A DNA stretch of 47,670 bases, from the NCBI GenBank assembly GCA_964366515.1, contig CAYIUF010000004.1, positions 1 through 47,670 on the forward strand. The letters are read 5' to 3'. The notes below the pieces were generated by a model. The model was given only the letters and a program-made list of their open reading frames with translations. It was not told where the DNA came from and did not search any database. Origin of the DNA: an uncultured Gammaproteobacteria bacterium. Lineage in GTDB: Bacteria > Patescibacteriota > Microgenomatia > UBA8517 > UBA10165. The translations under genes and the position numbers were made by a program. Positions 25,749 to 44,286 of this stretch are shown piece after piece (position 1 is the stretch's first letter; each line of letters begins with the position of its first letter).

Positions 25749-26768
25749 TTACTGCGACAGCAGGCGGTTGTAAATTGCTATCGTTTCTTTCGCGGTTTTT
25801 CCCCATGAGTAGCTTTTGGCATTTTCAAGCCCCGCTCTGACGATCCTGCTTCTTAAGGTTTTGTTGTCCAACACACTTCTTAATGCGTTTGCCATCTCTT
25901 TGGTGTCATGTGGATTTATAAAAACGGCTGAATCTCCAGACATCTCGACAAGGCATTGTGCTTTGGACGCGACCACAGGTGTTCCGCAACGTTGTGCTTC
26001 TAAAACAGGAAGTCCAAAACCTTCATAAAATGAAGGAAGGCACACGACTGATGCTAAGTTATAAATCTTCACAAGATCTTCGTCTGGAATAAATCCAAGA
26101 ACTTTGGTCTTGGCTTCAAGACCCTTGTATTTTATTAGTTCTAAAATGCTCTTTGCTTCGAGAGAAGACTCTTCGAAGCCTTTGCCTACTAAAACTAGTC
26201 TTAATTCTTCAGGTAAATGAGCAAATGCATTTACAAGTCCCTGAACATTTTTGTTGTCGTTAACGTCACCAACATATAAGACGAATCTCTCTGGAAGACC
26301 ATAGCGGTTCTTAATTTCCAATTTCCAATTTCCAATTTTCAATTGCTTGAAGTGTTCAGCTGGTGCAAGATGAGTGACGAAAACTTTTTCTTGAGGAATA
26401 TTAAGAAGCCTCACAATATCTTTTCTTGAAGTCTCAGAATCTGTAATTATTGCATCTACATTTTGGAGGCGTTTTTTTTGAATAAGGAATTTTGCCTTTC
26501 CACGAAATCCAGGTGCATACTGTTTGGGATACAGAAGTGGGATTACATCGTGTACTGTCACAACAGTGGGCTTGTTTCTCCCCGGGGACAAAGTCAGGAA
26601 AAATAGATCAAAAAATGGATAGTGAATGACGTCTGCATCTTTGGGACTCTTAACTAACAAAACACCTTTATCTTTTTCCAAAGCTTTAATAAGTTCTTTT
26701 GTATAAAAGCCTACTCCACGGACTTTATGCCCTGAGGTTAGAGGTGATGTGTCGATGTAAACTTTCAC
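25749..26768 (-). CDS. GT4 glycosyltransferase (MtfB/WbpY-like)
   Basis: RGVGFY, TVHDVIP and PSFYEGFGLPVLEA motifs; GTG start overlaps the upstream TGA (GTGA). Confidence 0.9.
   Translation of the reverse strand: MKVYIDTSPLTSGHKVRGVGFYTKELIKALEKDKGVLLVKSPKDADVIHYPFFDLFFLTLSPGRNKPTVVTVHDVIPLLYPKQYAPGFRGKAKFLIQKKRLQNVDAIITDSETSRKDIVRLLNIPQEKVFVTHLAPAEHFKQLKIGNWKLEIKNRYGLPERFVLYVGDVNDNKNVQGLVNAFAHLPEELRLVLVGKGFEESSLEAKSILELIKYKGLEAKTKVLGFIPDEDLVKIYNLASVVCLPSFYEGFGLPVLEAQRCGTPVVASKAQCLVEMSGDSAVFINPHDTKEMANALRSVLDNKTLRSRIVRAGLENAKSYSWGKTAKETIAIYNRLLSQ
26313..26344. repeat. Intragenic heptamer tandem repeat (AATTTCC)x~4.5
   Basis: aatttcc aatttcc aatttcc aattttc aatt; encodes LKIGNWKLEI. Confidence 0.9.
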
Positions 26769-27631
26769 CGGGTTATATACCTCCAATATGCTCTTGGGAA
26801 ACGAAGAGCGGAAAAAAATGAAAAGACAATCCCCGGAAATCCGTCTAATATTCCTTTGTGTCGTATTTGGGTCAATAGAAACCAATATATAGGTTTGAAA
26901 ATAAAATAATTTAAGCCAGTGCCTGGATCTTTTCCTGCTTTATTCTGACGAAGTTCTCCCGTAATAAGGTCTATATATCGACTATTTCTTTTTATATATC
27001 TTTCAAAGGTTGGGGAGTCAATGTGGAGTAAATTACTCTCAAGCCATCCCACTTTCCCTTGAACAACCATTTGTTCATGAACGCTTTTTGCCGGAAGATA
27101 TGCTTTGCCGCGTTTAATCAGCCTTATTACACCATCTGGATAAACACCGCCATATTTAAGATAGGTGCCCAAAAAATAATTGAGGCGTGGAAGGAAGAAT
27201 GCTGCATACTCGCCTGTTTCAGAACCCATTTTCCCGTCTCGCATTTCTACTAGTTTCTGGTGCCGCAAAAACAACTTTCTGTTCTTCAGTTCAGACTGAT
27301 GTTTATCAACTTCTGCGTCGGACATTCGGATAATTTGTTTAATTTCTTTGGCAAGCCCGAGGGTTACTCTTTCGTCCGCGTCTAGTTGTAATATCCATTC
27401 TCCAGATGCCTTCTCAATTGCTTTCTGTTTATTGATATGGAAATTTGTATGATTTTGCGTTTTTACAACTTTGGCTCCGAAACTTTCTGAAATATCACGA
27501 GTTTGGTCTTTTGAGGACCCGTCAACAATGATTATTTCGTCTGCTATATTTTTTACAGAACTAAGGCAATCTCTAATATTTTCTTCCTCGTTATACGTTG
27601 CCAAAACTACTGAAAGTTTTATTTTTGTCAT
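26765..27631 (-). CDS. GT2 glycosyltransferase (WaaE/KdtX-like)
   Basis: TYNEE, LDADE, YPDxxIRL, VHE and GILDG motifs. Confidence 0.87.
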   Translation of the reverse strand: MTKIKLSVVLATYNEEENIRDCLSSVKNIADEIIIVDGSSKDQTRDISESFGAKVVKTQNHTNFHINKQKAIEKASGEWILQLDADERVTLGLAKEIKQIIRMSDAEVDKHQSELKNRKLFLRHQKLVEMRDGKMGSETGEYAAFFLPRLNYFLGTYLKYGGVYPDGVIRLIKRGKAYLPAKSVHEQMVVQGKVGWLESNLLHIDSPTFERYIKRNSRYIDLITGELRQNKAGKDPGTGLNYFIFKPIYWFLLTQIRHKGILDGFPGIVFSFFSALRFPRAYWRYITR

Positions 27632-27644
27632 ATTAATTTTCTAT

Positions 27645-27755
27645 AACAGAACCCGAGAAAACCGCGAGCTTCTAGCTCGGGGATGAATCGGATTCTGGTA
27701 TGTCGTTCTCGCTTCGGCGAGAAACCGCGGACTTTCAGTCCGCGGAGAACGTCAT
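27645..27755 (+). mobile_element. Non-autonomous IS200/IS605-type hairpin element (PATE/MITE-like), copy 1
   Basis: Left hairpin ccgcgagct-tct-agctcgggg, middle cTTCGg hairpin, right hairpin GAAA-ccgcggact-ttc-agtccgcgg, terminal TCAT; homologous to 34329-34436. Confidence 0.75.
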
Positions 27756-29369
27756 AATCTTGAAGGCTGTTCTCCCGCTTGGGAAGTATATCTCCTTTGA
27801 GACGTTGGCTCCATCGGGCACTTCCTCTGGCGAGCCTGCAATTGTATATTTTGGGTATTTGGCAATTGTGGTTTCCCAATCTGAGTCTAGTCCAAACGAG
27901 TATCGATCAAAGCTTTCAACTGTCGAGAAGCCAAACTTGTCCCTTGAGGTTAAGGAATGTTCGGCTTGGAACTTGTCTGGTGGGTACTTCAAGTAAAACA
28001 AAAACAGAATGTAAGGCTGATCGTATCTTGTGGTCACCAAAAACTGTTTATTGTTGGCTTGTTCTTTCGTAAACAATACAAGTTCTTTGACTCCGTATTG
28101 AGAAGAATAGTCATATGTCTTTGGCATGTGTACATAATAGTTGTGGAGATAGCGAGTAAAGTCCCAAAAGATAAAAATGACAAATGACAAATGACAAATG
28201 ACAAATAGCCCGTGGTTGTTCTTAAGACGTTGAAGCCATGTCGCGATGTTCCATAACCCGTATGCACTTATGACGGTGAGAGGAACTATCATATTTTGGG
28301 CGCGGAGAGCATGGGGGGATTGAAAGGTTAATGCGGCAGGAATTGGGGCAACCACTAGCCAAAGCAAGATTGGAAACCAACCTTTCCCATTTTTTGCAAT
28401 TGCAAGAAGGCCTGCAATTAAGAAAATTAAATCGAACATATACATTGTCCCCATTTCTGGGACTTTATTTCTCTGAATTAAGTCTCCTGAAATAAAGAGA
28501 AAGTTTCCGTCGAAATGTTCCATATAGTTTCTTGCGAACGCGAGGCCGTAGTTAACCCCCTTGTTGTGCAACAACTTCGTTGAAAGACTTGTAGGGTTAT
28601 CGTGCTCTCCCCTCTGCTCGTCGGTCTTGCTTGTTGGCCCTAAATCTGCCAATAGTCCTACGCCAGAAGCTCGAGAGATACCTGCTGGACCTAATAAATC
28701 TTTTGCTAGGGGTAAAATTAAAACCAAACTCATTACAAGAGTTGCAAAAAAAACTTTTTTATTTTTTCCAAGGACAGCTTTGCGAAACTTTATGAGTAAT
28801 CCTAATGCAAGCAGCGGAACAACAATCCGTGCTGAGTGATATGTGTATAAAGCTGCAATCCATGAAATTGCTGACACAAGCAGCCATTTTTGTTTTTTTG
28901 TAGATTTTAAGAAGCCCCAGAAGCCCAAAGCCATAAAGAACGTTCCAGCATTTGCTTCCCAACCACCTCTTGAAAAATGAAGATGCCAAGGGGAGATTGC
29001 AAGAAAGATAGCAGAAATTTCGGGCAGCCATTTCTTGTCTGGAAAAAGTTCTTTAACTAATAACCAAACCAAAAACACTGTTCCCACACCCAATGTCGCA
29101 CCAGGTATCCGTACTGCCCACTCGTTGAGCCCGAAAACTTTAACAAATGGCATGACCAAGTAAAAATATAATCCGGGTTTGTAATCATTGAACGATTGAA
29201 AATGAATTGGCCACGTATTTGAATGTTCATCTTTGCCTGTTTCCAAAAGTGAGTGCGCGTTATAAACTATTGCGGCCTCATCGGCGTTTAGTGCAGGAAG
29301 TGAGTCAAGTTTATAAAACCTAAGTACGGTTGCAAGAATAATGATGAGGACAATTACTATTTTTTTCAT
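27735..29369 (-). CDS. GT-C ArnT/PMT (GT83/GT39)-like glycosyltransferase
   Basis: LNADEAAIVYNAHSLLETGKDE, SFNDYK, AISPWH.HFSR and YTYHSAR motifs. Confidence 0.85.
   Translation of the reverse strand: MKKIVIVLIIILATVLRFYKLDSLPALNADEAAIVYNAHSLLETGKDEHSNTWPIHFQSFNDYKPGLYFYLVMPFVKVFGLNEWAVRIPGATLGVGTVFLVWLLVKELFPDKKWLPEISAIFLAISPWHLHFSRGGWEANAGTFFMALGFWGFLKSTKKQKWLLVSAISWIAALYTYHSARIVVPLLALGLLIKFRKAVLGKNKKVFFATLVMSLVLILPLAKDLLGPAGISRASGVGLLADLGPTSKTDEQRGEHDNPTSLSTKLLHNKGVNYGLAFARNYMEHFDGNFLFISGDLIQRNKVPEMGTMYMFDLIFLIAGLLAIAKNGKGWFPILLWLVVAPIPAALTFQSPHALRAQNMIVPLTVISAYGLWNIATWLQRLKNNHGLFVICHLSFVIFIFWDFTRYLHNYYVHMPKTYDYSSQYGVKELVLFTKEQANNKQFLVTTRYDQPYILFLFYLKYPPDKFQAEHSLTSRDKFGFSTVESFDRYSFGLDSDWETTIAKYPKYTIAGSPEEVPDGANVSKEIYFPSGRTAFKIMTFSAD
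28175..28206. repeat. Intragenic heptamer tandem repeat (AAATGAC)x~4.5
   Basis: Four perfect aaatgac units plus aaat; encodes FVICHLSFVI. Confidence 0.92.
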
Positions 29370-31018
29370 TGAATTTTAAGAACCCGAAACGCTGTTGTTC
29401 CGTTCAGCCTTTTTATATCTTGAGCCTGGGCATCTTTAAGATCAAAAATAGCGGGAAAGGGGGGTGTTTCTGGATCATAAACAATCATGGTTTTGGGTTT
29501 TTGGATATCCCCCTCGGTTGCGTCTCGAAATTGGATTTTCCCAAGTTTTGCGGTCTTGCCTACATCTCCATAAAGACTTGCTTCAAAGGACGTCTTTGCG
29601 ACATCTTGAAACCTTTTTGGGTCGTATTTTTGGTGGAACAGGAAAAATATATATGGTTGGTTATAGCTTGGCTGAAAAATAATATTGTCAAACTCGTCTT
29701 CGCTTCTTGTTACAACTTGTACAGCTTCCTTATACCCATATGCCCATGCTCCAGAATCATGTACCGGATAATGGACATGATATTGATCAAGGTAGTATAA
29801 ATAGTTGCCAGCTAACCCGAATGTTAGAGCGCATAAGATAGTGTGTTTGAGTTTTGACTTTTTAATTAATTCAGCCAATTGCAGTACTCCAAATGCAGCT
29901 AACACAGAAATGGGAATAACCAACTGATAACTTCTAACCGCGTGTGATGAGTCTCGTGATAACGAAGCTGGCAAGGGAGCAAGAATAAGCCACAAGAGAA
30001 TAAATGCGACTCCAGTTCTTTTAGACTTGAACAATCCCAAAAATCCAAGTGCAAGGAGAGGTGCCTGGACCAGTAAAAGCATGCCTGTATCGGTTGCATG
30101 ATGGCGTGGATTTTCGTCCCCTTTAAAAAACAAAAAGTCTGCAGAATAATGGTTTAGCCACCTGCCCAAGATTCCTCGAACAAAGGATAGGGGTTCAGTG
30201 TGGTAGAGATAAAACTCAATCCCCAAATTGCCGTTTTTGTCTTGTCTTAATATTTCTTCAATTGCCGCTTTGGGTCTAACGTAGGAAAAAACACTAAATA
30301 CTTCTAGCCGCCCGGCTTTGCCTTGGAAGAAACTTAAGAATATTGGTAGGGTGATTATCAACCCGAACACTGCGGCTTTTGCTACATGTTCTTTGTTTTT
30401 AAGAACTACCTTCAAGTTGCAGGCTATAAGTGATAGCACAACTAGAGCGGTGGAGAGTTTTGCGCCCTGATAAGTCCAGAATGTTAGGGCGAAAAATAGT
30501 ACAGAGAAAATAAGTTTGTTCCTCTTTCCTTCTACAAATTCTAGAAAGTAATAAATGCCTGCAAGAATTAAAGTTAGGGCAACATTTGCTTCCCAAGCAC
30601 CTCGCGAGAAGTGTATATGCCATGGTGTCAGAGCAAGCACAAGGGCAGATATCGAGGCCATATTCTTGTCTTTAAACAGCTTCAGGACTACTAGATATAG
30701 TAGCCATATAGCCAAGATTCCTGATATGGCGCTTGGAAGTCTAACAGCCCATTCATTTAATCCCATGATTGCAACAAACGGGACAGTCAGATATACATAA
30801 AGTCCGGGCTTCCAATCGCCAAAAGATTTGAAAATTACTGGCAAAAAAGACCCATGCTCGTCTCTTGCCGTGGTTAAAATAGAGTAGGCGTTATACCCAA
30901 GCGCTGCCTCGTCACTGTTCAGATGTGGCGGATTGGAGTTTAGATGCCACAACCGAAGTAGGGCTCCGACAATTAAGGCAGCCAGTAGCAGTTTGTTTTT
31001 AAGCATAAAATTTACCAT
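29366..31018 (-). CDS. GT-C ArnT/PMT-like glycosyltransferase
   Basis: LNSDEAALGYNAYSILTTARDE, SFGDWK and PWHIHFSR motifs. Confidence 0.85.
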   Translation of the reverse strand: MVNFMLKNKLLLAALIVGALLRLWHLNSNPPHLNSDEAALGYNAYSILTTARDEHGSFLPVIFKSFGDWKPGLYVYLTVPFVAIMGLNEWAVRLPSAISGILAIWLLYLVVLKLFKDKNMASISALVLALTPWHIHFSRGAWEANVALTLILAGIYYFLEFVEGKRNKLIFSVLFFALTFWTYQGAKLSTALVVLSLIACNLKVVLKNKEHVAKAAVFGLIITLPIFLSFFQGKAGRLEVFSVFSYVRPKAAIEEILRQDKNGNLGIEFYLYHTEPLSFVRGILGRWLNHYSADFLFFKGDENPRHHATDTGMLLLVQAPLLALGFLGLFKSKRTGVAFILLWLILAPLPASLSRDSSHAVRSYQLVIPISVLAAFGVLQLAELIKKSKLKHTILCALTFGLAGNYLYYLDQYHVHYPVHDSGAWAYGYKEAVQVVTRSEDEFDNIIFQPSYNQPYIFFLFHQKYDPKRFQDVAKTSFEASLYGDVGKTAKLGKIQFRDATEGDIQKPKTMIVYDPETPPFPAIFDLKDAQAQDIKRLNGTTAFRVLKIQ

Positions 31019-32703
31019 TACATCTTCTCCAGTATTTCAAATGCGGGTTTACCATCAAGAAAATCTACTTTCTCGAGTAAATTCCAGTCTGGTGGATGGC
31101 TTCCTGGCGAGGTTATGAGCAGTGTTTTCTTGGGTATAACAGAAATCGTTCCTCCACTTTCTAACTTCCAAGACTTGTTCGTCTCTTTTGGTATATCCCA
31201 ATCGTTCATAAAATAAAACTTGTCGAATCTATCAACCCAGAACCATTCAGATTGTGCGAATCTCACAAGGTTTGGGTCATTTTCATAGCTTGCTGGATCC
31301 CAAGGCCAAAAGAAAAGCAAAAATTCATGAGGCTCACCGTACTTTTTGGTAATTATTATCTTGTCATACTTTTGGTAATTAGTCTTTATATAGGTAACTA
31401 CCTCTTTGTACCCGTATTGCCAATCTTGTGAATAGGCAACCGGGTATACAAAAAACATGTTCTTTAAATATGCAGATACTTGAAAAAGAAGAAGCGCTGC
31501 AAATCCAATGGCTAAAGATTTAGACAACCACGCTTTCCTTGCTTGGATGATTTCAAATATCTTGTACCCACCCAAAACAGTTAACAATTCGGGAATGGGC
31601 AACATAGCAGTTGAGCGCAAAACTGCATATTTTTCTTGTGTTACGCTTGCAGCAATTGGGGCCATCAATAACCATGCTAAGACAAATTGGTAGTTTTTAT
31701 TGTTCTTTGCGCGTTTTATTAAGATGAATAATCCTAAGTAGAAAAATGGCAGGTATGCAGAATAAAGCACTCCATTGTCAGGAATACTGAATTGATATTG
31801 CGTCCCCCCCTTTAGAAATAAATACTGAGGAGAGAAGTATCCTAAATAATTTGATGCAAACTTCTGTGCAAAAAAGACAGGCCGGTTGTATAGGAGCTTT
31901 GTTGCAATAGGAGTAAGAGTCGACTGGTTTCTTTGTTCCTCAATCTTAGCAATAGCTCCCTTGTCGACTAAGAAAATCCAGTTAGCCCTGGCTCTTGCTT
32001 CAGGATTATTCAAAAGCACGGGTAGTGGTGCAAAAAATAGCAAAATCAAAACCGCTGAAATGATTCCTGTCTTTGACTTGAAGTGTTCTAAAAGTTTCTG
32101 TCTATAAATAATCGCAATTGCGACTAGCAGTATCGGAGCAAAGATTCTTGTTGAGTGGTATGAAAATAAAGTTAAGCCCAGAAGGGTGAATGCGACAGGC
32201 AACAAGTATTTTTTCTTGGTGTTAATACCGTTTACGAAAAATGCGGCTGATGCTGTAAGGAGTGCAACTGATAGATTTGATTGCAGGACAAATCTTGAAG
32301 TAAACAAGTGCCAAGGATCAATGGCTACAAGAAATGCTCCGAATATGCTAAGCTTCTTGTTTTTAGTAATTCCTAAAAAGAGAAAGTATGAGGATAAAAT
32401 AGTTATCGTCCCAAGCAAAGCGTGTGGGAATCTTATTGCGAATTCATTTAATCCGAGAAGTTTTATAAAAGGCAGGGTTACATAAAGATTAAGAGGGAGT
32501 GGATAGTCTCCGTATGCGCGAAAGTTTGATATTGGAAAATTTTTCCCCCACTCATCTTTTCCGGTCTTTAAAATTGAGTAGGCGTTATATCCGTGGCTAA
32601 CCTCATCCCAATTCAAACTTGGTGGAACTTTATCTATTTGATATATGCGCAATAAAAATCCAAAAGCGCATATCAACAAGATAGGCAGTAACTTTTTAAG
32701 CAT
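31018..32703 (-). CDS. GT-C ArnT/PMT-like glycosyltransferase
   Basis: LNWDEVSHGYNAYSILKTGKDE, AYGDY and PWHLFTSR motifs; start 32703 or 32724. Confidence 0.85.
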   Translation of the reverse strand: MLKKLLPILLICAFGFLLRIYQIDKVPPSLNWDEVSHGYNAYSILKTGKDEWGKNFPISNFRAYGDYPLPLNLYVTLPFIKLLGLNEFAIRFPHALLGTITILSSYFLFLGITKNKKLSIFGAFLVAIDPWHLFTSRFVLQSNLSVALLTASAAFFVNGINTKKKYLLPVAFTLLGLTLFSYHSTRIFAPILLVAIAIIYRQKLLEHFKSKTGIISAVLILLFFAPLPVLLNNPEARARANWIFLVDKGAIAKIEEQRNQSTLTPIATKLLYNRPVFFAQKFASNYLGYFSPQYLFLKGGTQYQFSIPDNGVLYSAYLPFFYLGLFILIKRAKNNKNYQFVLAWLLMAPIAASVTQEKYAVLRSTAMLPIPELLTVLGGYKIFEIIQARKAWLSKSLAIGFAALLLFQVSAYLKNMFFVYPVAYSQDWQYGYKEVVTYIKTNYQKYDKIIITKKYGEPHEFLLFFWPWDPASYENDPNLVRFAQSEWFWVDRFDKFYFMNDWDIPKETNKSWKLESGGTISVIPKKTLLITSPGSHPPDWNLLEKVDFLDGKPAFEILEKM

Positions 32704-34330
32704 GTTTTTTAAATAATAGTCCAAACACTGCGATCGAAACCAAACTTATTAGGTTTCCAGTTGTCCTTATTGGTGTATTTGTAAAGTTTAAAACGATATT
32801 TTGATTTTCACCTTCGGGGAGCTTTGCAGTAACAAGGCCAAATTCGCCTGTCGGGTATGTGTTTGTTCTATTGCTGTTGACGCTTGCAATCCACCCAGGG
32901 AAGTATGCAATTGGAAATTGGACTTCGGATTCTTTATCAAGATTAACTATATATGAGGCTTTGTTTGTTGTTTTTCCGATTTCCTTGCCCACAAACCCTT
33001 CATCAGAAAGAGCATTTTTCGTAGCTTGCAATACAGGTATAGTTTTTGCAAACACAGGCCAATAGTCTCCAATTGAAGACGCTTGCTGTTCTTCCCATTT
33101 TGCACCTGAAAACTGTTCTTTGTCTGAAATTTTAAACCACAGGTCTTCTCTAAAAAAAGATAAGTTTGTTGCAATTACAACTCCCAAAATTACCCATGTT
33201 ATGTATTTAAATCGGGCAAAGACGAGTGCCATTGCTCCTCCAGCCAAAGAAAAACAGAACGTGGCAATAGAGAGAAAACGCCACGGAAATTGCAAATACC
33301 ACATAGGCTTGATATGCTCCCAAACTTGCGCAGATTTATTGTGTGTTAGAAAAAGTGCGAACCATCCAAGAATAGTTAATACTACCGCATCTTTTACTTC
33401 GCTTTTTTTGGAAAAGGTCAATAATATGATGCCGAGTATTGGTATTATCCATTGAACTTGCCCCACCGAAAGACTCAGTCTGTCATCTGGCCCAAACAGC
33501 GAGGCTCCGTAACCCCAATAGCGGGAAAATAAAAGTTGGGAAAACCCTGCAAAATGCCCTCTGAAGTCAAAGTAACCTTGGATTGTGGAGTCGAGATTGA
33601 TAAACTTTGTCTCAAAAATAACTGGTAGTAAATAATAAGAAGATAGGGCAACGGCACCAATTGCGGAGATTGCCATCGGAAAAATCCTCTTGTAACTTTT
33701 ACTTTCAAATATTTTAAATGCTAAAAAAATAGCTAAAGTAGGTATAAACATAAAAAGAGATAAATTATGCGTGAGAATTAACATGGATAGGCAGAGAGAT
33801 AGGTAAAAAAGGTTAATTTTCTTGCCTCCATCCATAAATTTGAGGGCAAAGAGGATTATTAAAGGAAAAAAAACGAAAGCCCAAGCCTCCGGAAGTGCTG
33901 CCCTGACCCAGACATCTAGTGCCCTGTACGGAGCGTATATGTATAGTATGGCGCTAAGTAGAGCTGAGTTGTTGTTTTTCCATAGATACTTTCCTAAGGT
34001 GAACATTGTAATCGCGGAAAAAACGAGAGACAGTGCAAACGCAATTTTTGTAGAATCGATTATTTGAAAACCAATTAGATGAAATGCTTCCCCCACAATA
34101 AACGGCACACGTGTGTAGAAGTTGAATAAAGGTTCGCCATAGCCATGCGCAGAATCAGGAGACCATCTACATGGGATCTGGAAATCTTTAATACATTTAT
34201 CAAATTCATAAAGTCTAAATACGTGAGGATCCTGCATTGAATAAATCCCAGGACGAAGCATTCTAAAAAAAGTTGGAATAGCCAAAACACAAACAAGAAG
34301 AATTAATATTTTGTCTTTACTGATTTTCAT
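32696..34330 (-). CDS. GT-C membrane protein, 'PTPS-related'/YfhO-like family
   Basis: QIPCRW...GYGEPLFNFY, YAPYR, THN, QFPWR and YFPGW motifs; start at MKISK because the upstream extension comes from the inserted element. Confidence 0.78.
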   Translation of the reverse strand: MKISKDKILILLVCVLAIPTFFRMLRPGIYSMQDPHVFRLYEFDKCIKDFQIPCRWSPDSAHGYGEPLFNFYTRVPFIVGEAFHLIGFQIIDSTKIAFALSLVFSAITMFTLGKYLWKNNNSALLSAILYIYAPYRALDVWVRAALPEAWAFVFFPLIILFALKFMDGGKKINLFYLSLCLSMLILTHNLSLFMFIPTLAIFLAFKIFESKSYKRIFPMAISAIGAVALSSYYLLPVIFETKFINLDSTIQGYFDFRGHFAGFSQLLFSRYWGYGASLFGPDDRLSLSVGQVQWIIPILGIILLTFSKKSEVKDAVVLTILGWFALFLTHNKSAQVWEHIKPMWYLQFPWRFLSIATFCFSLAGGAMALVFARFKYITWVILGVVIATNLSFFREDLWFKISDKEQFSGAKWEEQQASSIGDYWPVFAKTIPVLQATKNALSDEGFVGKEIGKTTNKASYIVNLDKESEVQFPIAYFPGWIASVNSNRTNTYPTGEFGLVTAKLPEGENQNIVLNFTNTPIRTTGNLISLVSIAVFGLLFKKHA

Positions 34331-34436
34331 GACGTTCTCCACGGCCTTTAGTCCGCGGTTTCACTCCTGAGAGAGAACGACATATCAAGTTCAATTCCTC
34401 CGCGAATTAAGAATTCGCGGTTTCCTTGAATTTGTT
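34329..34436 (-). mobile_element. Non-autonomous IS200/IS605-type hairpin element, copy 2
   Basis: Minus strand: TCAT|aacaaattcaagGAAAccgcgaatt-ctt-aattcgcgg...tatgtcgttctc...GAAAccgcggactaaaggccgtggagaacgTCAT. Confidence 0.75.
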
Positions 34437-35666
34437 ATGACGAGTCGACTTCAATGTCAAAATGGAAATGAACGCAGCAGTGGAAGCAAATAGTCCAAAG
34501 AAAATACTCCTTAATGTAATTTCTGGAAAAATTTTTGAAAGTATCGGTACAAGGGAGAAATCTCGACCCCACGGAGCGTTAACTGGAGAAAAAAGCCCAG
34601 TATTTAATGACGGTTCAAACAATAAAACGATTCCAACAAAACAAGCAATTAGTACTGCCACGGGCAAATATGACTTCCTGCCAAGTCTAACTAAAAGTAT
34701 TACCAAAAGCGGAGTAATCCAGACAAACCATTGTGGGTGAAAGTGAACAAAACTGTAAAAAAGCAAAAGTGGAAGTATAAACCACTGCCATAGCGTGTAT
34801 TTTTTAGTAAAGTAAAGACAGCACCAATAAATTATAAAAAGTCCTACGAGAAATAAGGGAAGAAAAGCACCGCCAGAGATGGGAATTTTTGCAAAGAATA
34901 TTTTATCTGACTGTGAAGCAAGCAATGCATAATGCCTAAAACCTGCCGAAGGCAAATAAGGCAGGAGCACTGCAATATAGGTCGCGGCTCCGACCAAAAA
35001 CACACTCAATCTTTTCCAAAAAGATCCTGGTGTATAAAATGCAAGTATGGGAAGAAGAACAAATACGAATTGTTTTACTGTTGCGCCAAGGGCTAACACA
35101 ACTGCGGCGAGTAAAAACTTTTTGCTTTTAGCAAGAACTAAACATAAAACGATTGAGAGTGCAAGCAGTACGTCGAATTGCGAAATCATGTAAGTTCCAT
35201 ATATAACAACTGGATTTAACAACCAGAAAATTTGAGCAAGGAGTTTTTGATTTTTGTTTTCAAAAAGTTTACCCAAAAAGTAGACTATAAGAAGATCCGG
35301 CAATAGATAGGGAAGTTTTAAAAGGTAAAGCAAAAGTGGTAATTGTGGATTACCAATTGTTTTCCACATGTCGTAAATTAAAGTATTAAATAAGTCATGT
35401 GGGTAAAGCCCAGAGAGTAATTTCATAAAAACTGACGGGTAAAGATAAGCTATTGGAGGGTATATAAAAAGATCTTTTCCGTACAATTTAACTAAAGGGT
35501 CATTTGTATCTTGTTGGGATAAATAATCATAGAAATCCAAAACATGTCCTTTTGAAATTAGGTCTGCGCCTAAGTTATATCCTCTTATATCAGGATGCAA
35601 AGTTGTAGGAATAATAATAAGTCTTAATATTAGACCCAATAGCAGCCATGGAATTAGTTTTTTCAT
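34407..35666 (-). CDS. GT-C membrane glycosyltransferase (GT87/DUF2029-like)
   Basis: HPD after TM1, YPP, LKLPY..D, WLLNP, QFD and HPQW motifs. Confidence 0.7.
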   Translation of the reverse strand: MKKLIPWLLLGLILRLIIIPTTLHPDIRGYNLGADLISKGHVLDFYDYLSQQDTNDPLVKLYGKDLFIYPPIAYLYPSVFMKLLSGLYPHDLFNTLIYDMWKTIGNPQLPLLLYLLKLPYLLPDLLIVYFLGKLFENKNQKLLAQIFWLLNPVVIYGTYMISQFDVLLALSIVLCLVLAKSKKFLLAAVVLALGATVKQFVFVLLPILAFYTPGSFWKRLSVFLVGAATYIAVLLPYLPSAGFRHYALLASQSDKIFFAKIPISGGAFLPLFLVGLFIIYWCCLYFTKKYTLWQWFILPLLLFYSFVHFHPQWFVWITPLLVILLVRLGRKSYLPVAVLIACFVGIVLLFEPSLNTGLFSPVNAPWGRDFSLVPILSKIFPEITLRSIFFGLFASTAAFISILTLKSTRHNKFKETANS

Positions 35667-42496: not shown

Positions 42497-44286
42497 TTTT
42501 GGGTTGTATTTGTTGACTTTGTTAAAAGGTAATAAGCCGGCTCGCCGGAAGGGAAAGGAGAAGATTTTATAAGTTTAAGATTTCCAGGCAGCCTTTCTGG
42601 TTCTTGAATTAAGTTCACGCTTACGTCTTTTGCAGTTGCTATATAGAGCGTGTTGTCTGGAAGCACTCCAGCAAGGCTATACAGGTCTGTATTTGCTGAC
42701 CCGAAGTAGTACTTATCTAATTTCGATATCTTTCCAAATCCAGGAATTGTTTCTGACGGCAGCCATTTTCCCCCATCCCTTTCAATATAGTTTTGCTGGA
42801 ATACTTTTGGATCGAATTGTGACCAGCCTAATAAAAAGATGTATGCTGGCTCTCCGTTCATTGAGATTATAACTTTATCGTATTTAGGACTTTCAGCAGC
42901 GGCGGTTTTTATTGCGTCTTCAAATCCAGCATGCCACCAGCGTTCTGAATCCCAAGGATGATGAACCCAATAAAGGTGTTGGTAAAAGACGAAACTTGCA
43001 AGTAGGGTGAATGCGTATCCAATGCCGAATAGTTTACGATTGGCGTTTGATAACGATTGGTATATTCCCCATACGCCATATGAGATTAAAAACACCAATG
43101 GCGGGAGAAGAAAGAAAAGTCGAGTTGCATGGTTGCCTCCGTCTCGTGTGAGAGCTGATGGAAGTGGTGCAAGCAGAACCCACAGAATAATAAAGGCTTT
43201 GATTTTTTTGTCTAACTTTGAAAATAGGAAGAAAGCAAGGCCCGCAATTAAGAACAAAAACTCAAGCCTATAAAATTGTCCAATACCCTGGGGCGAATGG
43301 CGTGGGTTTGGATCACCTTCCAGAAAGAGAAAGTTTGTTGAAAAAGCTTCTAGATAGTTTTTGAAAACAAAAGATCCAGTCCAGGTAAACTTGTTGTGTA
43401 TTGCGCGTTCAATAATTGTTGGCTGCAGGCCGACTTCGTTCGTTTCAGTTCTCATCCTTCCATCATGGAGCCTTGAAAAGCCAATTTCGGGAATCATTGT
43501 TGGATCTGAAAACACAGATATGTAATTGAAGCGTGTTGCGCCCCCCCCAAAAATCGTTGTGTACAACATTGGTGAGACGACAATTACAAATGCTGCAACT
43601 CCCTGGACTAAATACTTTTTTGAAATACCAAGGATGTCTTTTCTCCAAATAATAAAAAGAGAGATTACAGTAAGTGGGAGGAACAGTTTTGCCGTGCTGT
43701 AGCTCCATGGTGTTAGTGCTAAACACACTCCCGATAGCCACAGAAATTTGCCATCCTTTAGCCCGCGAAGAAAGAAGTAAATTCCGCTTAAGTAAAGTGC
43801 GAGCATTTGGGTTACTTCAAAACCCGCACGCGAGTATTGAATATGCCAAGGCGACACCGCAATAAGGAGGGCAGACAAAAGTGCTAACTTCTTATTGCCT
43901 GTTATTTGACCAACGAGTAGGTAGAACAGCCATACGCTCAAGATTCCAAAAATAGCAGCAGGGAGGCGAACACCCCAGGGTGATATTCCAAACATGGCCA
44001 CAGTGGGGACTGCGCTGTAGAGATATAAGGGTGTTCTCCACTCTGCCAAAGACTGAAAATGCAGGGGCATGAAGTTGCCTGAGTAGTCTTTTCCGGTTTT
44101 TAATATTGAATATGCATGATATCCGACGTCTAGTTCATCGCCGAATAAAGAAACGGGGACTGAGTCCAAGCGCCACAGTCGCAGGAATGCAGCTAATATA
44201 ATTACTGCCACCAATAATATTTTTGTGTTTGATAGAGATTGCTTCGTCACTTCGTTCCTCGCAATGACATTCGGATAAATTGCCAT
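42493..44286 (-). CDS. GT-C ArnT/PMT-like glycosyltransferase
   Basis: LFGDELDVGYHAYSILKTGKD and SPWHIQYSR motifs; exact start uncertain. Confidence 0.85.
   Translation of the reverse strand: MAIYPNVIARNEVTKQSLSNTKILLVAVIILAAFLRLWRLDSVPVSLFGDELDVGYHAYSILKTGKDYSGNFMPLHFQSLAEWRTPLYLYSAVPTVAMFGISPWGVRLPAAIFGILSVWLFYLLVGQITGNKKLALLSALLIAVSPWHIQYSRAGFEVTQMLALYLSGIYFFLRGLKDGKFLWLSGVCLALTPWSYSTAKLFLPLTVISLFIIWRKDILGISKKYLVQGVAAFVIVVSPMLYTTIFGGGATRFNYISVFSDPTMIPEIGFSRLHDGRMRTETNEVGLQPTIIERAIHNKFTWTGSFVFKNYLEAFSTNFLFLEGDPNPRHSPQGIGQFYRLEFLFLIAGLAFFLFSKLDKKIKAFIILWVLLAPLPSALTRDGGNHATRLFFLLPPLVFLISYGVWGIYQSLSNANRKLFGIGYAFTLLASFVFYQHLYWVHHPWDSERWWHAGFEDAIKTAAAESPKYDKVIISMNGEPAYIFLLGWSQFDPKVFQQNYIERDGGKWLPSETIPGFGKISKLDKYYFGSANTDLYSLAGVLPDNTLYIATAKDVSVNLIQEPERLPGNLKLIKSSPFPSGEPAYYLLTKSTNTTQK
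44235..44268. repeat. REP/RPE-like palindromic element
   Basis: gagattgcttcgtcacttcgttcctcgcaatgac with ATTGC...GCAAT arms; reads VIARNEVTKQS on the minus strand. Confidence 0.65.

What the first reader, a model, noticed from the sequence alone, without database searches (positions are those of the whole stretch)
27645..27755. ~110-bp IS200/IS605-type mini-element, copy 1: precise excision restores a clean gene end
The element has three hairpins and ends in GAAA-hairpin-gagaacgTCAT. The GAAA guide/TCAT cleavage pair obeys the IS608 TnpA rule (guide GAAT with TCAA, AAAG with TTAC). It supplies the last codons and stop of the GT-C gene (FKI-MTFSAD*). Deleting 27645-27755 in silico gives FKI-IEN* with TAA one base before the next ATG (27631), like the paralog ends FEILEKM* and FLFEN*. 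This supports a real insertion with no target duplication. No transposase is present in the window, and the left site here is CTAT, an imperfect match to the rule.
Basis: partly seen in the sequence, partly recalled or inferred. Interest (0 to 1): 0.75.

Follow-up and report, generated by a model that had tools for sequence, protein, structure and literature searches.

The report
Miniature IS200/IS605 transposon in Woesebacteria
The 111-base stretch is a gene-less miniature transposon of the IS200/IS605 kind that landed in the tail of a glycosyltransferase gene, an ordinary type of mobile DNA whose mobilising enzyme was not found in this genome.

Summary
Window 27645-27755 is a sharply bounded 111-nt element with three hairpins. 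The genome has 5 copies, and about 90 copies were found in Woesebacteria, Microgenomates and Blackburnbacteria MAGs.

The IS200/IS605 reading is supported:
- There are no terminal inverted repeats and no target duplication.
- Both subterminal hairpins lie on the same strand.
- The right end is TCAT, 10 nt after the hairpin foot, in 80 of 80 aligned copies.
- The 5' flank follows the left guide. All 12 GAAA-guide copies sit after TCAT. Of 68 copies whose guide starts with A, 61 sit after TTAT.
- The dinucleotide after the hairpin follows the IS608 base-triple pattern.

Orthologous junctions in two related genera lack the element and end AFKVVAN* and AFKMVGN*. In-silico excision gives AFKIIEN*.

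The right-end module also closes haloarchaeal TnpB elements and one IS200-type TnpA element in another small MAG. So this is a PATE-like non-autonomous derivative: a new member of a known kind.

Still open:
- No canonical TnpA was found in any of the 18 element-bearing genomes searched, and no OrfB_IS605-type TnpB in the 13 of them covered by that search (0 of 61 genomes in all). Only RAYT-like Y1 genes of about 220 aa with different hairpins were found.
- A covarying helix that pairs the right cleavage site is unexplained.

The parts
27641..27644 (+). 5' flanking target tetranucleotide (left cleavage site C_L), here CTAT
   Evidence: In 80 aligned copies the flank is TTAT 61, TCAT 12, CTAT 4, and CAAT, TGAT, TAAT 1 each. 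It remains at the in-silico empty site.
27645..27755 (+). Whole mini-element, copy 1 (111 nt). The + strand is the 'top' strand.
   Evidence: Copies stop being alike exactly at these ends. CM match 107 bits, E 1.8e-18. Metagenome contigs carrying other copies diverge at 27642 and 27755.
27647..27697 (+). Left domain: outer stem (27647-27656 with 27688-27697) enclosing the left guide and hairpin
   Evidence: Helix 1: 7 of 10 pairs have changes on both sides and 88.8% of cells are paired. Inverted repeat I1.
27658..27661 (+). Left guide G_L (AAAA), the 4 nt 5' of the left hairpin
   Evidence: Its first base pairs with the second base of the flank: U-A in 65 copies, C-G in 12, other in 3. Rule taken from PMC3201880 passages.
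27662..27682 (+). Left subterminal hairpin (9-bp stem with one G.G mismatch, 3-nt loop)
   Evidence: Helices 2 and 3: 7 of 8 pairs have changes on both sides. Folds.
27683..27684 (+). AT directly 3' of the left hairpin, at the position of IS608 A+42 T+43
   Evidence: AT in 66 of 68 copies whose guide starts with A. AG in 12 of 12 GAAA-guide copies. Passages of PMC3201880.
27700..27709 (+). 5' arm of the long-range helix, which pairs with 27746-27755
   Evidence: Helix 4: columns 75/121 are AU 66, GC 12, GU 2; columns 77/119 are CG 57, UA 21. A T.T mismatch is conserved in 79 of 80. Inverted repeat I2, 92% complementary.
27706..27723 (+). Middle hairpin (TTCTCGC / GCGAGAA). It overlaps the long-range arm and the right guide.
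   Evidence: Inverted repeat I4, 100% complementary. The stem differs between copies in the alignment; this was read by eye, not counted.
27721..27724 (+). Right guide G_R (GAAA)
   Evidence: GAAA in 59 of 80 copies. G1 pairs with C of TCAT in 73 of 80.
27725..27745 (+). Right subterminal hairpin (perfect 9-bp stem, 3-nt loop)
   Evidence: Inverted repeat I3. Helix 5: 7 of 8 pairs have changes on both sides.
27746..27755 (+). Right terminal 10 nt: AG, a 4-nt linker, then TCAT (right cleavage site C_R, 27752-27755)
   Evidence: 10 nt from hairpin foot to end in 80 of 80 copies. AG in 79 of 80 and TCAT in 79 of 80. IS608 has A-10 G-9 and cleaves after position -1.
27735..29369 (-). PMT_2-type (GT-C) glycosyltransferase gene. 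Its last 6 codons and stop lie in the element.
   Evidence: Pfam PF13231, E 2e-11. Tail ...AFKIMTFSAD*.
26765..27631 (-). Downstream GT2 gene. Its ATG lies 13 nt beyond the element's left end.
   Evidence: Pfam PF00535, E 7e-21. ORF list.
34329..34440 (-). Copy 2 of the family (element 34436-34329 on the - strand) with its 5' target TCAT (34440-34437)
   Evidence: nhmmer E 3e-35; CM 105.5 bits. It sits in the overlap of two genes. The stop of the upstream ORF falls inside the element, and the element's terminal CAT plus the flanking G keeps the downstream ATG.

Best explanation
The stretch is a non-autonomous, transposase-less derivative of an IS200/IS605-family insertion sequence, of the kind called PATE in haloarchaea. 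It consists only of a fused left end and right end.

Inferred mechanism, by analogy with IS608. A Y1 HUH transposase (TnpA) supplied in trans binds the two subterminal hairpins on the single-stranded top strand (the + strand here). The 4 nt in front of each hairpin (left AAAA, right GAAA) pair with the cleavage tetranucleotides: the flank TTAT (here CTAT) and the terminal TCAT. The enzyme cuts after both. It seals the donor precisely and re-inserts the single-stranded circle 3' of another TTAT or TCAT, without duplicating the target.

Shown here: the element's anatomy, the target rule, the empty sites, and the kinship of its ends with TnpA- and TnpB-bearing elements.

Inferred only: the chemistry, the single-strand intermediate, and the identity of the enzyme.

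At this site the insertion replaced the last four codons of a PMT_2-type glycosyltransferase (IIEN* became MTFSAD*) and separated it from the next gene.
For: (1) Family and sharp ends.
- The genome has 5 copies.
- 12 of 60 relatives carry 1-6 copies each.
- An exact pattern found 87 loci in public genomes. 80 of the 89 nhmmer hits there were full length, mostly 103-116 nt.

(2) No terminal inverted repeat. The flank (mostly TTAT) and the terminus (TCAT) differ, so this is not a target duplication.

(3) IS608 rule. According to PMC3201880 passages and the PMC5934647 figure legend, C-3 pairs with G1 of the guide, T-4 pairs with A2, A-2 is unpaired, and A-10 G-9 lie directly 3' of the hairpin.
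- Right end here: GAAA-hairpin-AG-NNNN-TCAT, with 10 nt from foot to end in 80 of 80 copies.
- Left end: 12 of 12 GAAA-guide copies lie after TCAT and have AG after the hairpin.
- Of 68 copies whose guide starts with A, 61 lie after TTAT and 66 have AT after the hairpin.
- Because the flank is host DNA at separate loci, each copy is a separate test of the rule.

(4) Hairpins are kept by compensatory change: 90.1% of cells are paired against 77.4% in shuffles, 24 of 36 pairs show changes on both sides, and 0 of 500 shuffles reach these values.

(5) Empty sites. G004 and G005 have the same PMT_2|GT2 junction without the element, ending AFKVVAN* and AFKMVGN*. Excision here gives AFKIIEN*.

(6) Some copies abut the terminal TCAT of another copy (L051, L074, L010/L039).

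(7) The right-end module is shared with other elements. It lies directly after a canonical Y1_Tnp ORF (E 1.4e-31) in L172, and after TnpB ORFs (PF01385 and PF07282) in the two haloarchaeal loci scanned, L136 and L138.

(8) GC skew of the flanks, read on the top strand, is positive in 42 of 64 copies (binomial p 0.017). IS200/IS605 elements are reported to prefer the lagging-strand template (abstract of PMC5027513; which strand is G-rich is my own reasoning).

(9) Recent activity. Copies C4b and C1a are 98% alike over 112 nt. Metagenome contigs hold a copy with 3-4 differences in other flanks.
Against: - No copy with a transposase gene between these ends was found. 0 of the 89 hits is a long coding element, and only 1 of 87 loci (L077) has a Y1 gene within 2.5 kb.
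- No canonical (about 140-aa) TnpA was found in any element-bearing genome searched: G000, the 12 positive relatives and 5 high-copy genomes.
- G026, G047 and G064 carry copies but gave no PF01797 match.
- The resident Y1 genes of about 220 aa carry other flanking hairpins. The covariance model finds nothing beside 16 Y1 loci (best E 0.4).
- The window copy sits after CTAT, a mismatch to its AAAA guide.
- Hairpin stems differ widely between copies, even within one genome. That is unusual if the enzyme reads stem sequence.
- A covarying helix pairs the right cleavage site, which the IS608 model does not predict.
- The 12 TCAT-type copies form one subfamily, so within the element the guide change is a single event.
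- Relative to flanking ORFs, the top strand is antisense more often than sense (18 against 9). This does not fit the skew result simply.
Confidence: 0.88

Rival explanations
1. It is a REP/RAYT-like system. The resident, chromosomally fixed Y1 proteins of about 220 aa (weak matches to REP-associated tyrosine transposase) are the enzymes that move these elements. The elements are then host-maintained repeats rather than relics of an insertion sequence.
For: - G000 has four such genes, and relatives have up to 8.
- NCBIfam NF047646 matches them at E 5e-15 and 5e-5, below its cut-off.
- 10 of 12 element-bearing relatives have PF01797, against 22 of 48 without the element.
- G061, with at least 12 copies, has a single Y1. 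It is of the C13/C26 type, which is also present in the 3 other Y1-positive high-copy genomes.
- No canonical TnpA was found in these genomes.
Against: - The Y1 genes are flanked by their own, different hairpins (CACC..GGTG type, or GCCTTGCAAGGC type).
- The covariance model finds no element-like end beside 16 Y1 loci.
- G026, G047 and G064 carry elements but gave no Y1 match.
- Copy numbers are 1-14 per genome, not the hundreds typical of REPs (abstract of PMC2817692).
- The co-occurrence is confounded by relatedness.
Confidence: 0.2
2. The right half is an orphan guide-RNA (omegaRNA) remnant of a TnpB element, and it is kept because it works at the RNA level.
For: - In the two haloarchaeal loci scanned with Pfam (L136, L138), the same 34-nt right-end module lies directly after a TnpB gene. 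Many other haloarchaeal loci have an unscanned ORF of about 430-470 aa at the same place.
- The covarying long-range helix has a weaker counterpart (CCTCC with GGAGG) in those elements. This was read by eye.
Against: - PF01385 gave 0 of 61 genomes, G000 included. PF07282 gave only E 0.34 in G000.
- There is no consistent orientation relative to genes.
- Rfam gave no match in the window.
- Target specificity and empty sites are DNA-level facts.
Confidence: 0.03
3. It is a structured regulatory RNA or an mRNA-stabilising or terminator element that happens to be repeated.
For: - The structure is strong and conserved.
- Copies lie mostly between genes.
- In copy 2 the right end supplies GGAG plus CAT in front of a downstream gene.
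Against: - Orientation relative to flanking ORFs is mixed: --18, ++9, -+9, +-1, and the rest undetermined.
- No T-run follows the hairpins.
- No Rfam family matches.
- The insertion lies after a fixed tetranucleotide that follows the guide.
- The element is absent from orthologous junctions.
Confidence: 0.04
4. It is a classical MITE with terminal inverted repeats and a 4-bp target duplication (TCAT).
For: In the TCAT subfamily the flank and the terminus are identical (TCAT ... TCAT).
Against: - In 61 of 80 copies the flank is TTAT but the terminus is TCAT.
- No inverted repeat joins the two termini.
Confidence: 0.02

Closest known systems
IS608 (Helicobacter pylori), the reference member of IS200/IS605
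   Same: - Subterminal hairpins lie on one strand at both ends.
- A 4-nt guide in front of each hairpin pairs with a cleavage tetranucleotide in the same register (C2 with G1, C1 with G2, C4 with G4, and an unpaired A at position 3).
- AG follows the right hairpin directly, and the cut is 10 nt after the hairpin foot.
- AT follows the left hairpin.
- Insertion is 3' of the target, without duplication.
   Different: - It has no tnpA or tnpB.
- The tetranucleotides are TTAT/TCAT with guides AAAA/GAAA, where IS608 has TTAC/TCAA with AAAG/GAAT.
- The left end is 16-17 nt from the hairpin.
- Its hairpins are perfect and their stems vary.
- It has two extra features: an outer stem around the left hairpin and a covarying helix that pairs the right cleavage site.
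PATEs (palindrome-associated transposable elements) of Haloquadratum walsbyi and the haloarchaeal IS605/IS1341-type elements they derive from (PMC3119063, passages read)
   Same: - Short and non-coding, with no inverted terminal repeats.
- Near-terminal palindromes like those of IS605-type transposons, and a conserved terminal oligonucleotide.
- A 4-5 bp targeting sequence at the 5' end.
- The same puzzle: the elements appear mobile without an intact IS200-type transposase.
- The 34-nt right-end module of this element occurs in many haloarchaeal genomes. In the two loci scanned it follows a TnpB gene.
   Different: - The host is a Patescibacteria (Woesebacteria) lineage with a genome under 1 Mb.
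- The left half is similar only in the ...TGAATCG stretch after the hairpin (read by eye).
- No TnpB was found in any of the 61 related genomes searched.
- I could not read that paper's Table S9 (a .doc file), so identity with a named PATE or ISNph/ISHwa element was not checked.
REP/BIME repeats with RAYT transposases
   Same: Both are hairpin repeats presumably handled by a single-copy Y1 HUH enzyme. The genome holds RAYT-like Y1 genes.
   Different: - This element has distinct left and right ends and a guide/target rule.
- Copy number is low.
- The repeats do not flank the Y1 genes.
- The conserved GTAG head of REPs (recalled, not from a call) is not present.

Membership tests
IS200/IS605 family (as a non-autonomous derivative) | Subterminal hairpins at both ends on the same strand, and no terminal inverted repeats | tested here: met
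   The left unit (GAAAAC-hairpin-GGATGA) and the right unit (GAAAC-hairpin-GGAGAA) have the same orientation.
IS200/IS605 family (as a non-autonomous derivative) | Insertion 3' of a specific tetra- or pentanucleotide, without target duplication | tested here: met
   The flank is TTAT or TCAT in 73 of 80 copies, and the terminus is TCAT in 79 of 80. Empty orthologous sites were found.
IS200/IS605 family (as a non-autonomous derivative) | Cleavage sites are read by base pairing with a guide 5' of each hairpin | tested here: met
   By sequence only. The guide/flank/post-hairpin correspondence is 12 of 12 in one group and 61-66 of 68 in the other, against the IS608 rule. No biochemistry was done.
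IS200/IS605 family (as a non-autonomous derivative) | Encodes a Y1 HUH transposase TnpA, or shares its ends with an element that does | tested here: inconclusive
   No gene lies in the element. The right-end module is shared with one TnpA element (L172) and with TnpB elements. The left end of L172 is different, and no cognate TnpA was found in G000.
IS200/IS605 family (as a non-autonomous derivative) | Top strand lies preferentially on the lagging-strand template | tested here: inconclusive
   Local GC skew is positive in 42 of 64 copies (p 0.017). This is a noisy proxy, and gene orientation points the other way.
PATE (palindrome-associated transposable element) | Too short to code, no inverted terminal repeats, near-terminal palindromes related to IS605-type transposons | tested here: met
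   The element is 111 nt. The definition is from passages of PMC3119063.
REP/RAYT | High-copy REPs that flank the RAYT gene | tested here: not met
   There are 5 copies, none beside the four Y1 genes. Only 1 of 87 loci has a Y1 gene within 2.5 kb.
TnpB omegaRNA | A TnpB nuclease is present to use the RNA | tested here: not met
   PF01385 matched 0 of 61 genomes. PF07282 reached only E 0.34 in G000.

The most novel reading that the evidence does not exclude
In Woesebacteria the miniature IS608-like elements are moved by the resident family of RAYT-like Y1 proteins of about 220 aa (4-8 diverged paralogs in genomes under 1 Mb), not by any canonical IS200 TnpA. That would be a domesticated, REP/RAYT-style arrangement that nevertheless keeps the full left-end/right-end guide logic. 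The conserved helix that pairs the right cleavage site would act as a built-in switch, hiding the site until the strand is unwound.
Probability: 0.2. Interest if true: 0.65.

Novelty: new member of a known kind. Interest (0 to 1): 0.4.

Why it matters
- It documents an active-looking single-strand transposon family in Patescibacteria, organisms with very small genomes and few recognised mobile elements.
- It gives a natural example of re-targeting. A one-base change in the guide, matched by the base behind the hairpin, goes with a change of insertion site from TTAT to TCAT at 12 separate loci.
- For annotation, it explains odd gene tails and small intergenic palindromes in these MAGs, and some contig breaks.
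- The same right-end module occurs in haloarchaeal TnpB elements, in a TnpA element and in minis of several candidate phyla. This marks out a widely distributed IS200/IS605 subgroup.
- The lack of any canonical TnpA in the carriers repeats a puzzle already noted for haloarchaeal PATEs.

Tried and rejected
- Rfam at gathering thresholds: no family anywhere in the window.
- The first exact-pattern scan, using this copy's own hairpin, found nothing. Looser patterns worked.
- Search for an autonomous copy:
  - Among the 89 hits in 87 loci, the 9 partial hits were either cut by contig ends (L033, L065, L110) or were variants. L054 and L048 have extra hairpins in the left loop, L043 has the left hairpin deleted, and L083 has a diverged left end. 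L091 and L060 were not inspected. None had a transposase gene.
  - tblastn with the four Y1 proteins hit only L077.
  - The canonical IS200 of G018, and the G049 canonical-type Y1 matches (one with internal stops, one at a contig end), show no nhmmer similarity to the element.
  - The search for related loci with the L172 TnpA returned only itself.
- Public runs: only assembled contigs were available. They confirm the filled site and show other copies. No contig joins 27644 to 27756. Contigs drop rare variants, so this says nothing about excision.
- A second empty site, for copy 2, could not be read. Relatives matched only one flank.
- A strict pattern for an element-like left end in 13 haloarchaeal loci found none. 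By eye, only ...TGAATCG after the hairpin is shared.
- Earlier notes of this scan: nothing on this genome or sequence.
- I tried by eye to fit the guide rule to the flanks of the RAYT-like genes and to the left end of the L172 element. I found no convincing fit.

Full report
**1. The observation**

- The repeat finder lists four structures: a left-domain palindrome (27643-27670 / 27674-27701, 75% complementary), a middle hairpin (27706-27712 / 27717-27723), a perfect 9-bp right hairpin (27725-27733 / 27737-27745) and a 12-nt long-range pair (27699-27710 / 27745-27756, 92%). No pair joins the two termini.
- As single-stranded DNA the region folds far better than shuffles: z -5.4 and -6.0, with 0 of 200 shuffles as good.
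- The ORF 27735-29369 on the - strand is a PMT_2-type (GT-C) glycosyltransferase. It ends ...GRTAFKIMTFSAD*, with its stop inside the element.
- Removing 27645-27755 in silico gives ...GRTAFKIIEN*. TAA, one base and the ATG of the next gene, a GT2, then follow.

**2. It is a repeat family with sharp ends**

- blastn, nhmmer and a covariance model each find the same five copies in the 918-kb, 80-contig genome:
  - C4:27645-27755, the copy studied here;
  - C4:34436-34329, which lies in the window on the - strand;
  - C1:66057-66166;
  - C45, where the copy is cut by the contig end;
  - C1:38752-38684, which keeps both ends but has lost the left hairpin.
- Alignments stop being alike exactly after ...GTCAT on the right and before AACAG/AACAA on the left.
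- 12 of 60 related genomes carry 1-6 copies each.
- An exact pattern found 87 loci, mostly in Woesebacteria, Microgenomates and Blackburnbacteria MAGs. Of the 89 nhmmer hits in them, 80 were full length and mostly 103-116 nt. None was a long, coding element.
- Metagenome contigs from two studies confirm the filled site. They also hold near-identical copies whose flanks diverge at 27642 and 27755.

**3. Anatomy over 80 distinct copies (alignment A1)**

- The named structure is paired in 90.1% of cells, against 77.4% in shuffles. 24 of 36 pairs change on both sides, and 0 of 500 shuffles reach these values. Slid controls give 34-47%.
- Hairpin stems vary freely between copies but stay paired. 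The single-stranded parts are nearly invariant.
- The right end is always hairpin, then AG, four bases and TCAT. It is 10 nt from foot to end in 80 of 80 copies, with TCAT in 79 of 80.
- The left end runs 16-17 nt from the first base to the hairpin foot.

**4. The IS608 rule, checked against the literature**

- The figure legend of PMC5934647 gives C_L TTAC, G_L AAAG, C_R TCAA and G_R GAAT.
- Passages of PMC3201880 give the register:
  - C-3 pairs with the first guide base.
  - T-4 pairs with the second guide base.
  - A-2 is unpaired.
  - The two bases just 3' of the right hairpin (A-10, G-9) form triples with the first two guide bases.
  - A+42 and T+43 are the left-end equivalents.
- The element's right end (GAAA, AG, TCAT) fits this position for position.
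- At the left end there are two states:
  - AAAA guide, AT behind the hairpin, TTAT flank;
  - GAAA guide, AG behind the hairpin, TCAT flank.
- All 12 GAAA copies lie after TCAT and have AG. Of the 68 copies whose guide starts with A, 61 lie after TTAT and 66 have AT. The other flanks are CTAT in 4, and CAAT, TGAT and TAAT in 1 each.
- The 12 form one subfamily, so the change inside the element is one event. The flank, however, is host DNA at 12 separate loci, so each insertion tests the rule independently.
- TTAT differs from TCAT in most copies, which excludes a target duplication.
- The window copy has the AAAA guide and sits after CTAT. That is a one-base departure: either a later mutation or an off-target insertion.

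**5. Mobility**

- The PMT_2|GT2 junction is conserved in G004 and G005, which belong to the same family but other genera, and lacks the element there.
- Their genes end AFKVVAN* and AFKMVGN*, immediately before the GT2 start. The excised window tail AFKIIEN* has the same length and the same last residue.
- Some copies begin directly after the TCAT terminus of another copy (L051, L074, L010/L039). This is expected if the terminus mimics the target.
- Window copy 2 lies after TCAT in the overlap of two genes. The upstream ORF now ends inside the element. The terminal CAT plus the flanking G keeps the downstream ATG.
- Copies C4b and C1a are 98% alike, which points to recent activity.
- Read on the top strand, flank GC skew is positive in 42 of 64 copies (p 0.017). 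This is the direction expected if the top strand lies on the lagging-strand template. It is a noisy proxy, though, and gene orientation (antisense 18, sense 9) does not support it simply.

**6. Relatives of the ends**

- A pattern for the right-end module alone hit more than 112 loci. They include many haloarchaea, an Aenigmatarchaeota MAG, other candidate-phyla bacteria (WWE3, Uhrbacteria, Parcubacteria, Saccharibacteria) and a few others.
- Many haloarchaeal loci have an ORF of about 430-470 aa that ends just before the module. The two that were scanned (L136, L138) are TnpB, with PF01385 and PF07282.
- In L172, a canonical Y1_Tnp ORF (E 1.4e-31) ends right at the module.
- The L172 genome (G066, about 1.0 Mb) also carries its own mini family of about 105 nt with the same design. 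5 of its 6 copies lie after TTAT and 1 lies after TCAT.
- PATEs of Haloquadratum are described as short, repeat-free derivatives of IS605-type transposons with near-terminal palindromes and a terminal oligonucleotide. They seem mobile although the IS200-type genes there are broken (passages of PMC3119063).
- The window element is the same kind of thing in a Patescibacteria host.

**7. The enzyme is not identified**

- G000 has four Y1_Tnp ORFs of 220-268 aa on other contigs. They form two paralog pairs and match the REP-associated tyrosine transposase model only weakly.
- Each is flanked by its own hairpins, which differ from the element's. The covariance model finds nothing beside 16 such loci (best E 0.4).
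- 10 of 12 element-bearing relatives have PF01797, against 22 of 48 relatives without the element. G026 and G047 have copies but no match.
- G061 has at least 12 copies and one Y1, of the C13/C26 type. G064 has about 8 copies and none.
- Canonical-type matches (G018, and two in G049, one of them with internal stops) occur only in genomes where the element was not found, and show no similarity to it.
- PF01385 (the TnpB core) was found in 0 of 61 genomes.
- So the mobiliser could be one of three things: a RAYT-like paralog; a canonical TnpA in unassembled DNA, since the genome is 92.6% complete and one copy ends a contig; or an enzyme that visits on other DNA.

**8. Unexplained extras**

- The helix 27700-27709 / 27746-27755 covaries at two positions: AU 66, GC 12, GU 2 at one, and CG 57, UA 21 at the other. 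It keeps a T.T mismatch at T-4 in 79 of 80 copies.
- It competes with the middle hairpin and would hide the right cleavage site. It also occurs in the G066 minis (by eye).
- With no TnpB in these genomes, a DNA-level role is more likely than an RNA role. Examples would be a closed state of the end, or cruciform extrusion. That is inference only.

**9. Verdict**

- The element is a new member of a known kind: a non-autonomous IS200/IS605 element, or PATE.
- It is of moderate interest for three reasons: the clean natural guide/target correspondence, the distribution of its right end across both prokaryotic domains, and the missing transposase.

Noticed in passing
G000 contigs C9:3875-4561(+), C22:3777-4043(-), C13:6480-7286(+), C26:8580-8810(-) (loci L001-L004): There are four Y1_Tnp genes of about 220 aa, in two paralog pairs. 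Relatives have up to 8 in genomes of 0.7-0.9 Mb. Each gene is bracketed by its own hairpins: the CACC..GGTG type for the C13/C26 clade across several genomes, and GCCTTGCAAGGC-like for C9/C22.
   Followed up: partly
G000 C9, just upstream of the Y1 gene (L001): The roughly 30 bases that encode LASPGHALQG at the end of the upstream gene recur inside the Y1 gene (…LASPGHALQGWEA…). They contain the palindrome GCCTTGCAAGGC. C22 shows the same arrangement. This looks like a repeat shared between the gene's flank and its interior.
   Followed up: no
window 34329-34440 (- strand): A second copy of the family sits in the overlap of two genes. The upstream ORF now stops inside the element. The element's GGAG...CAT plus the flanking G gives the downstream gene a ribosome-binding-like site and keeps its ATG.
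   Followed up: partly
G000 C1:38684-38765 (- strand); L043: These copies keep both termini and the TCAT flank but have lost the left hairpin. Other copies (L054, L048, L055) carry extra hairpins inside the left loop.
   Followed up: partly
L051, L074, L010/L039, L012/L101: Some elements are inserted directly after the TCAT terminus of another copy. Others sit behind a 5-nt stub of a left end (AACAG followed by TTAT).
   Followed up: partly
L172/L255 and L257-L267 (genome G066): A MAG of about 1.0 Mb carries an IS200-type TnpA element that ends in the same right-end module. It also carries a separate mini family of about 105 nt (at least 6 copies, several at contig ends). In L257, the left end of yet another element starts a few bases after the terminus.
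   Followed up: partly
L016 (G001:C29): A left-half-only copy lies about 20 nt downstream of what looks like the 3' end of a tRNA gene.
   Followed up: no
window 27791-27915: One low-depth contig of run X1 skips 123 bases inside the PMT_2 gene (depth 2.8, 21 letters on the shorter side). It is probably a relative or an assembly artefact.
   Followed up: no
window 27735-31018, 32696-34342, and around 43806-43878: The window holds an array of paralogous large membrane proteins (PMT_2 and PTPS_related) on the - strand. A 73-nt stretch is conserved between three of them.
   Followed up: no
record titles of L030, L033, L041, L045 and others: Several MAGs that carry the element are titled 'uncultured Gammaproteobacteria', although their contigs and repeat content look like Woesebacteria-type genomes. 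The labels may be wrong.
   Followed up: no
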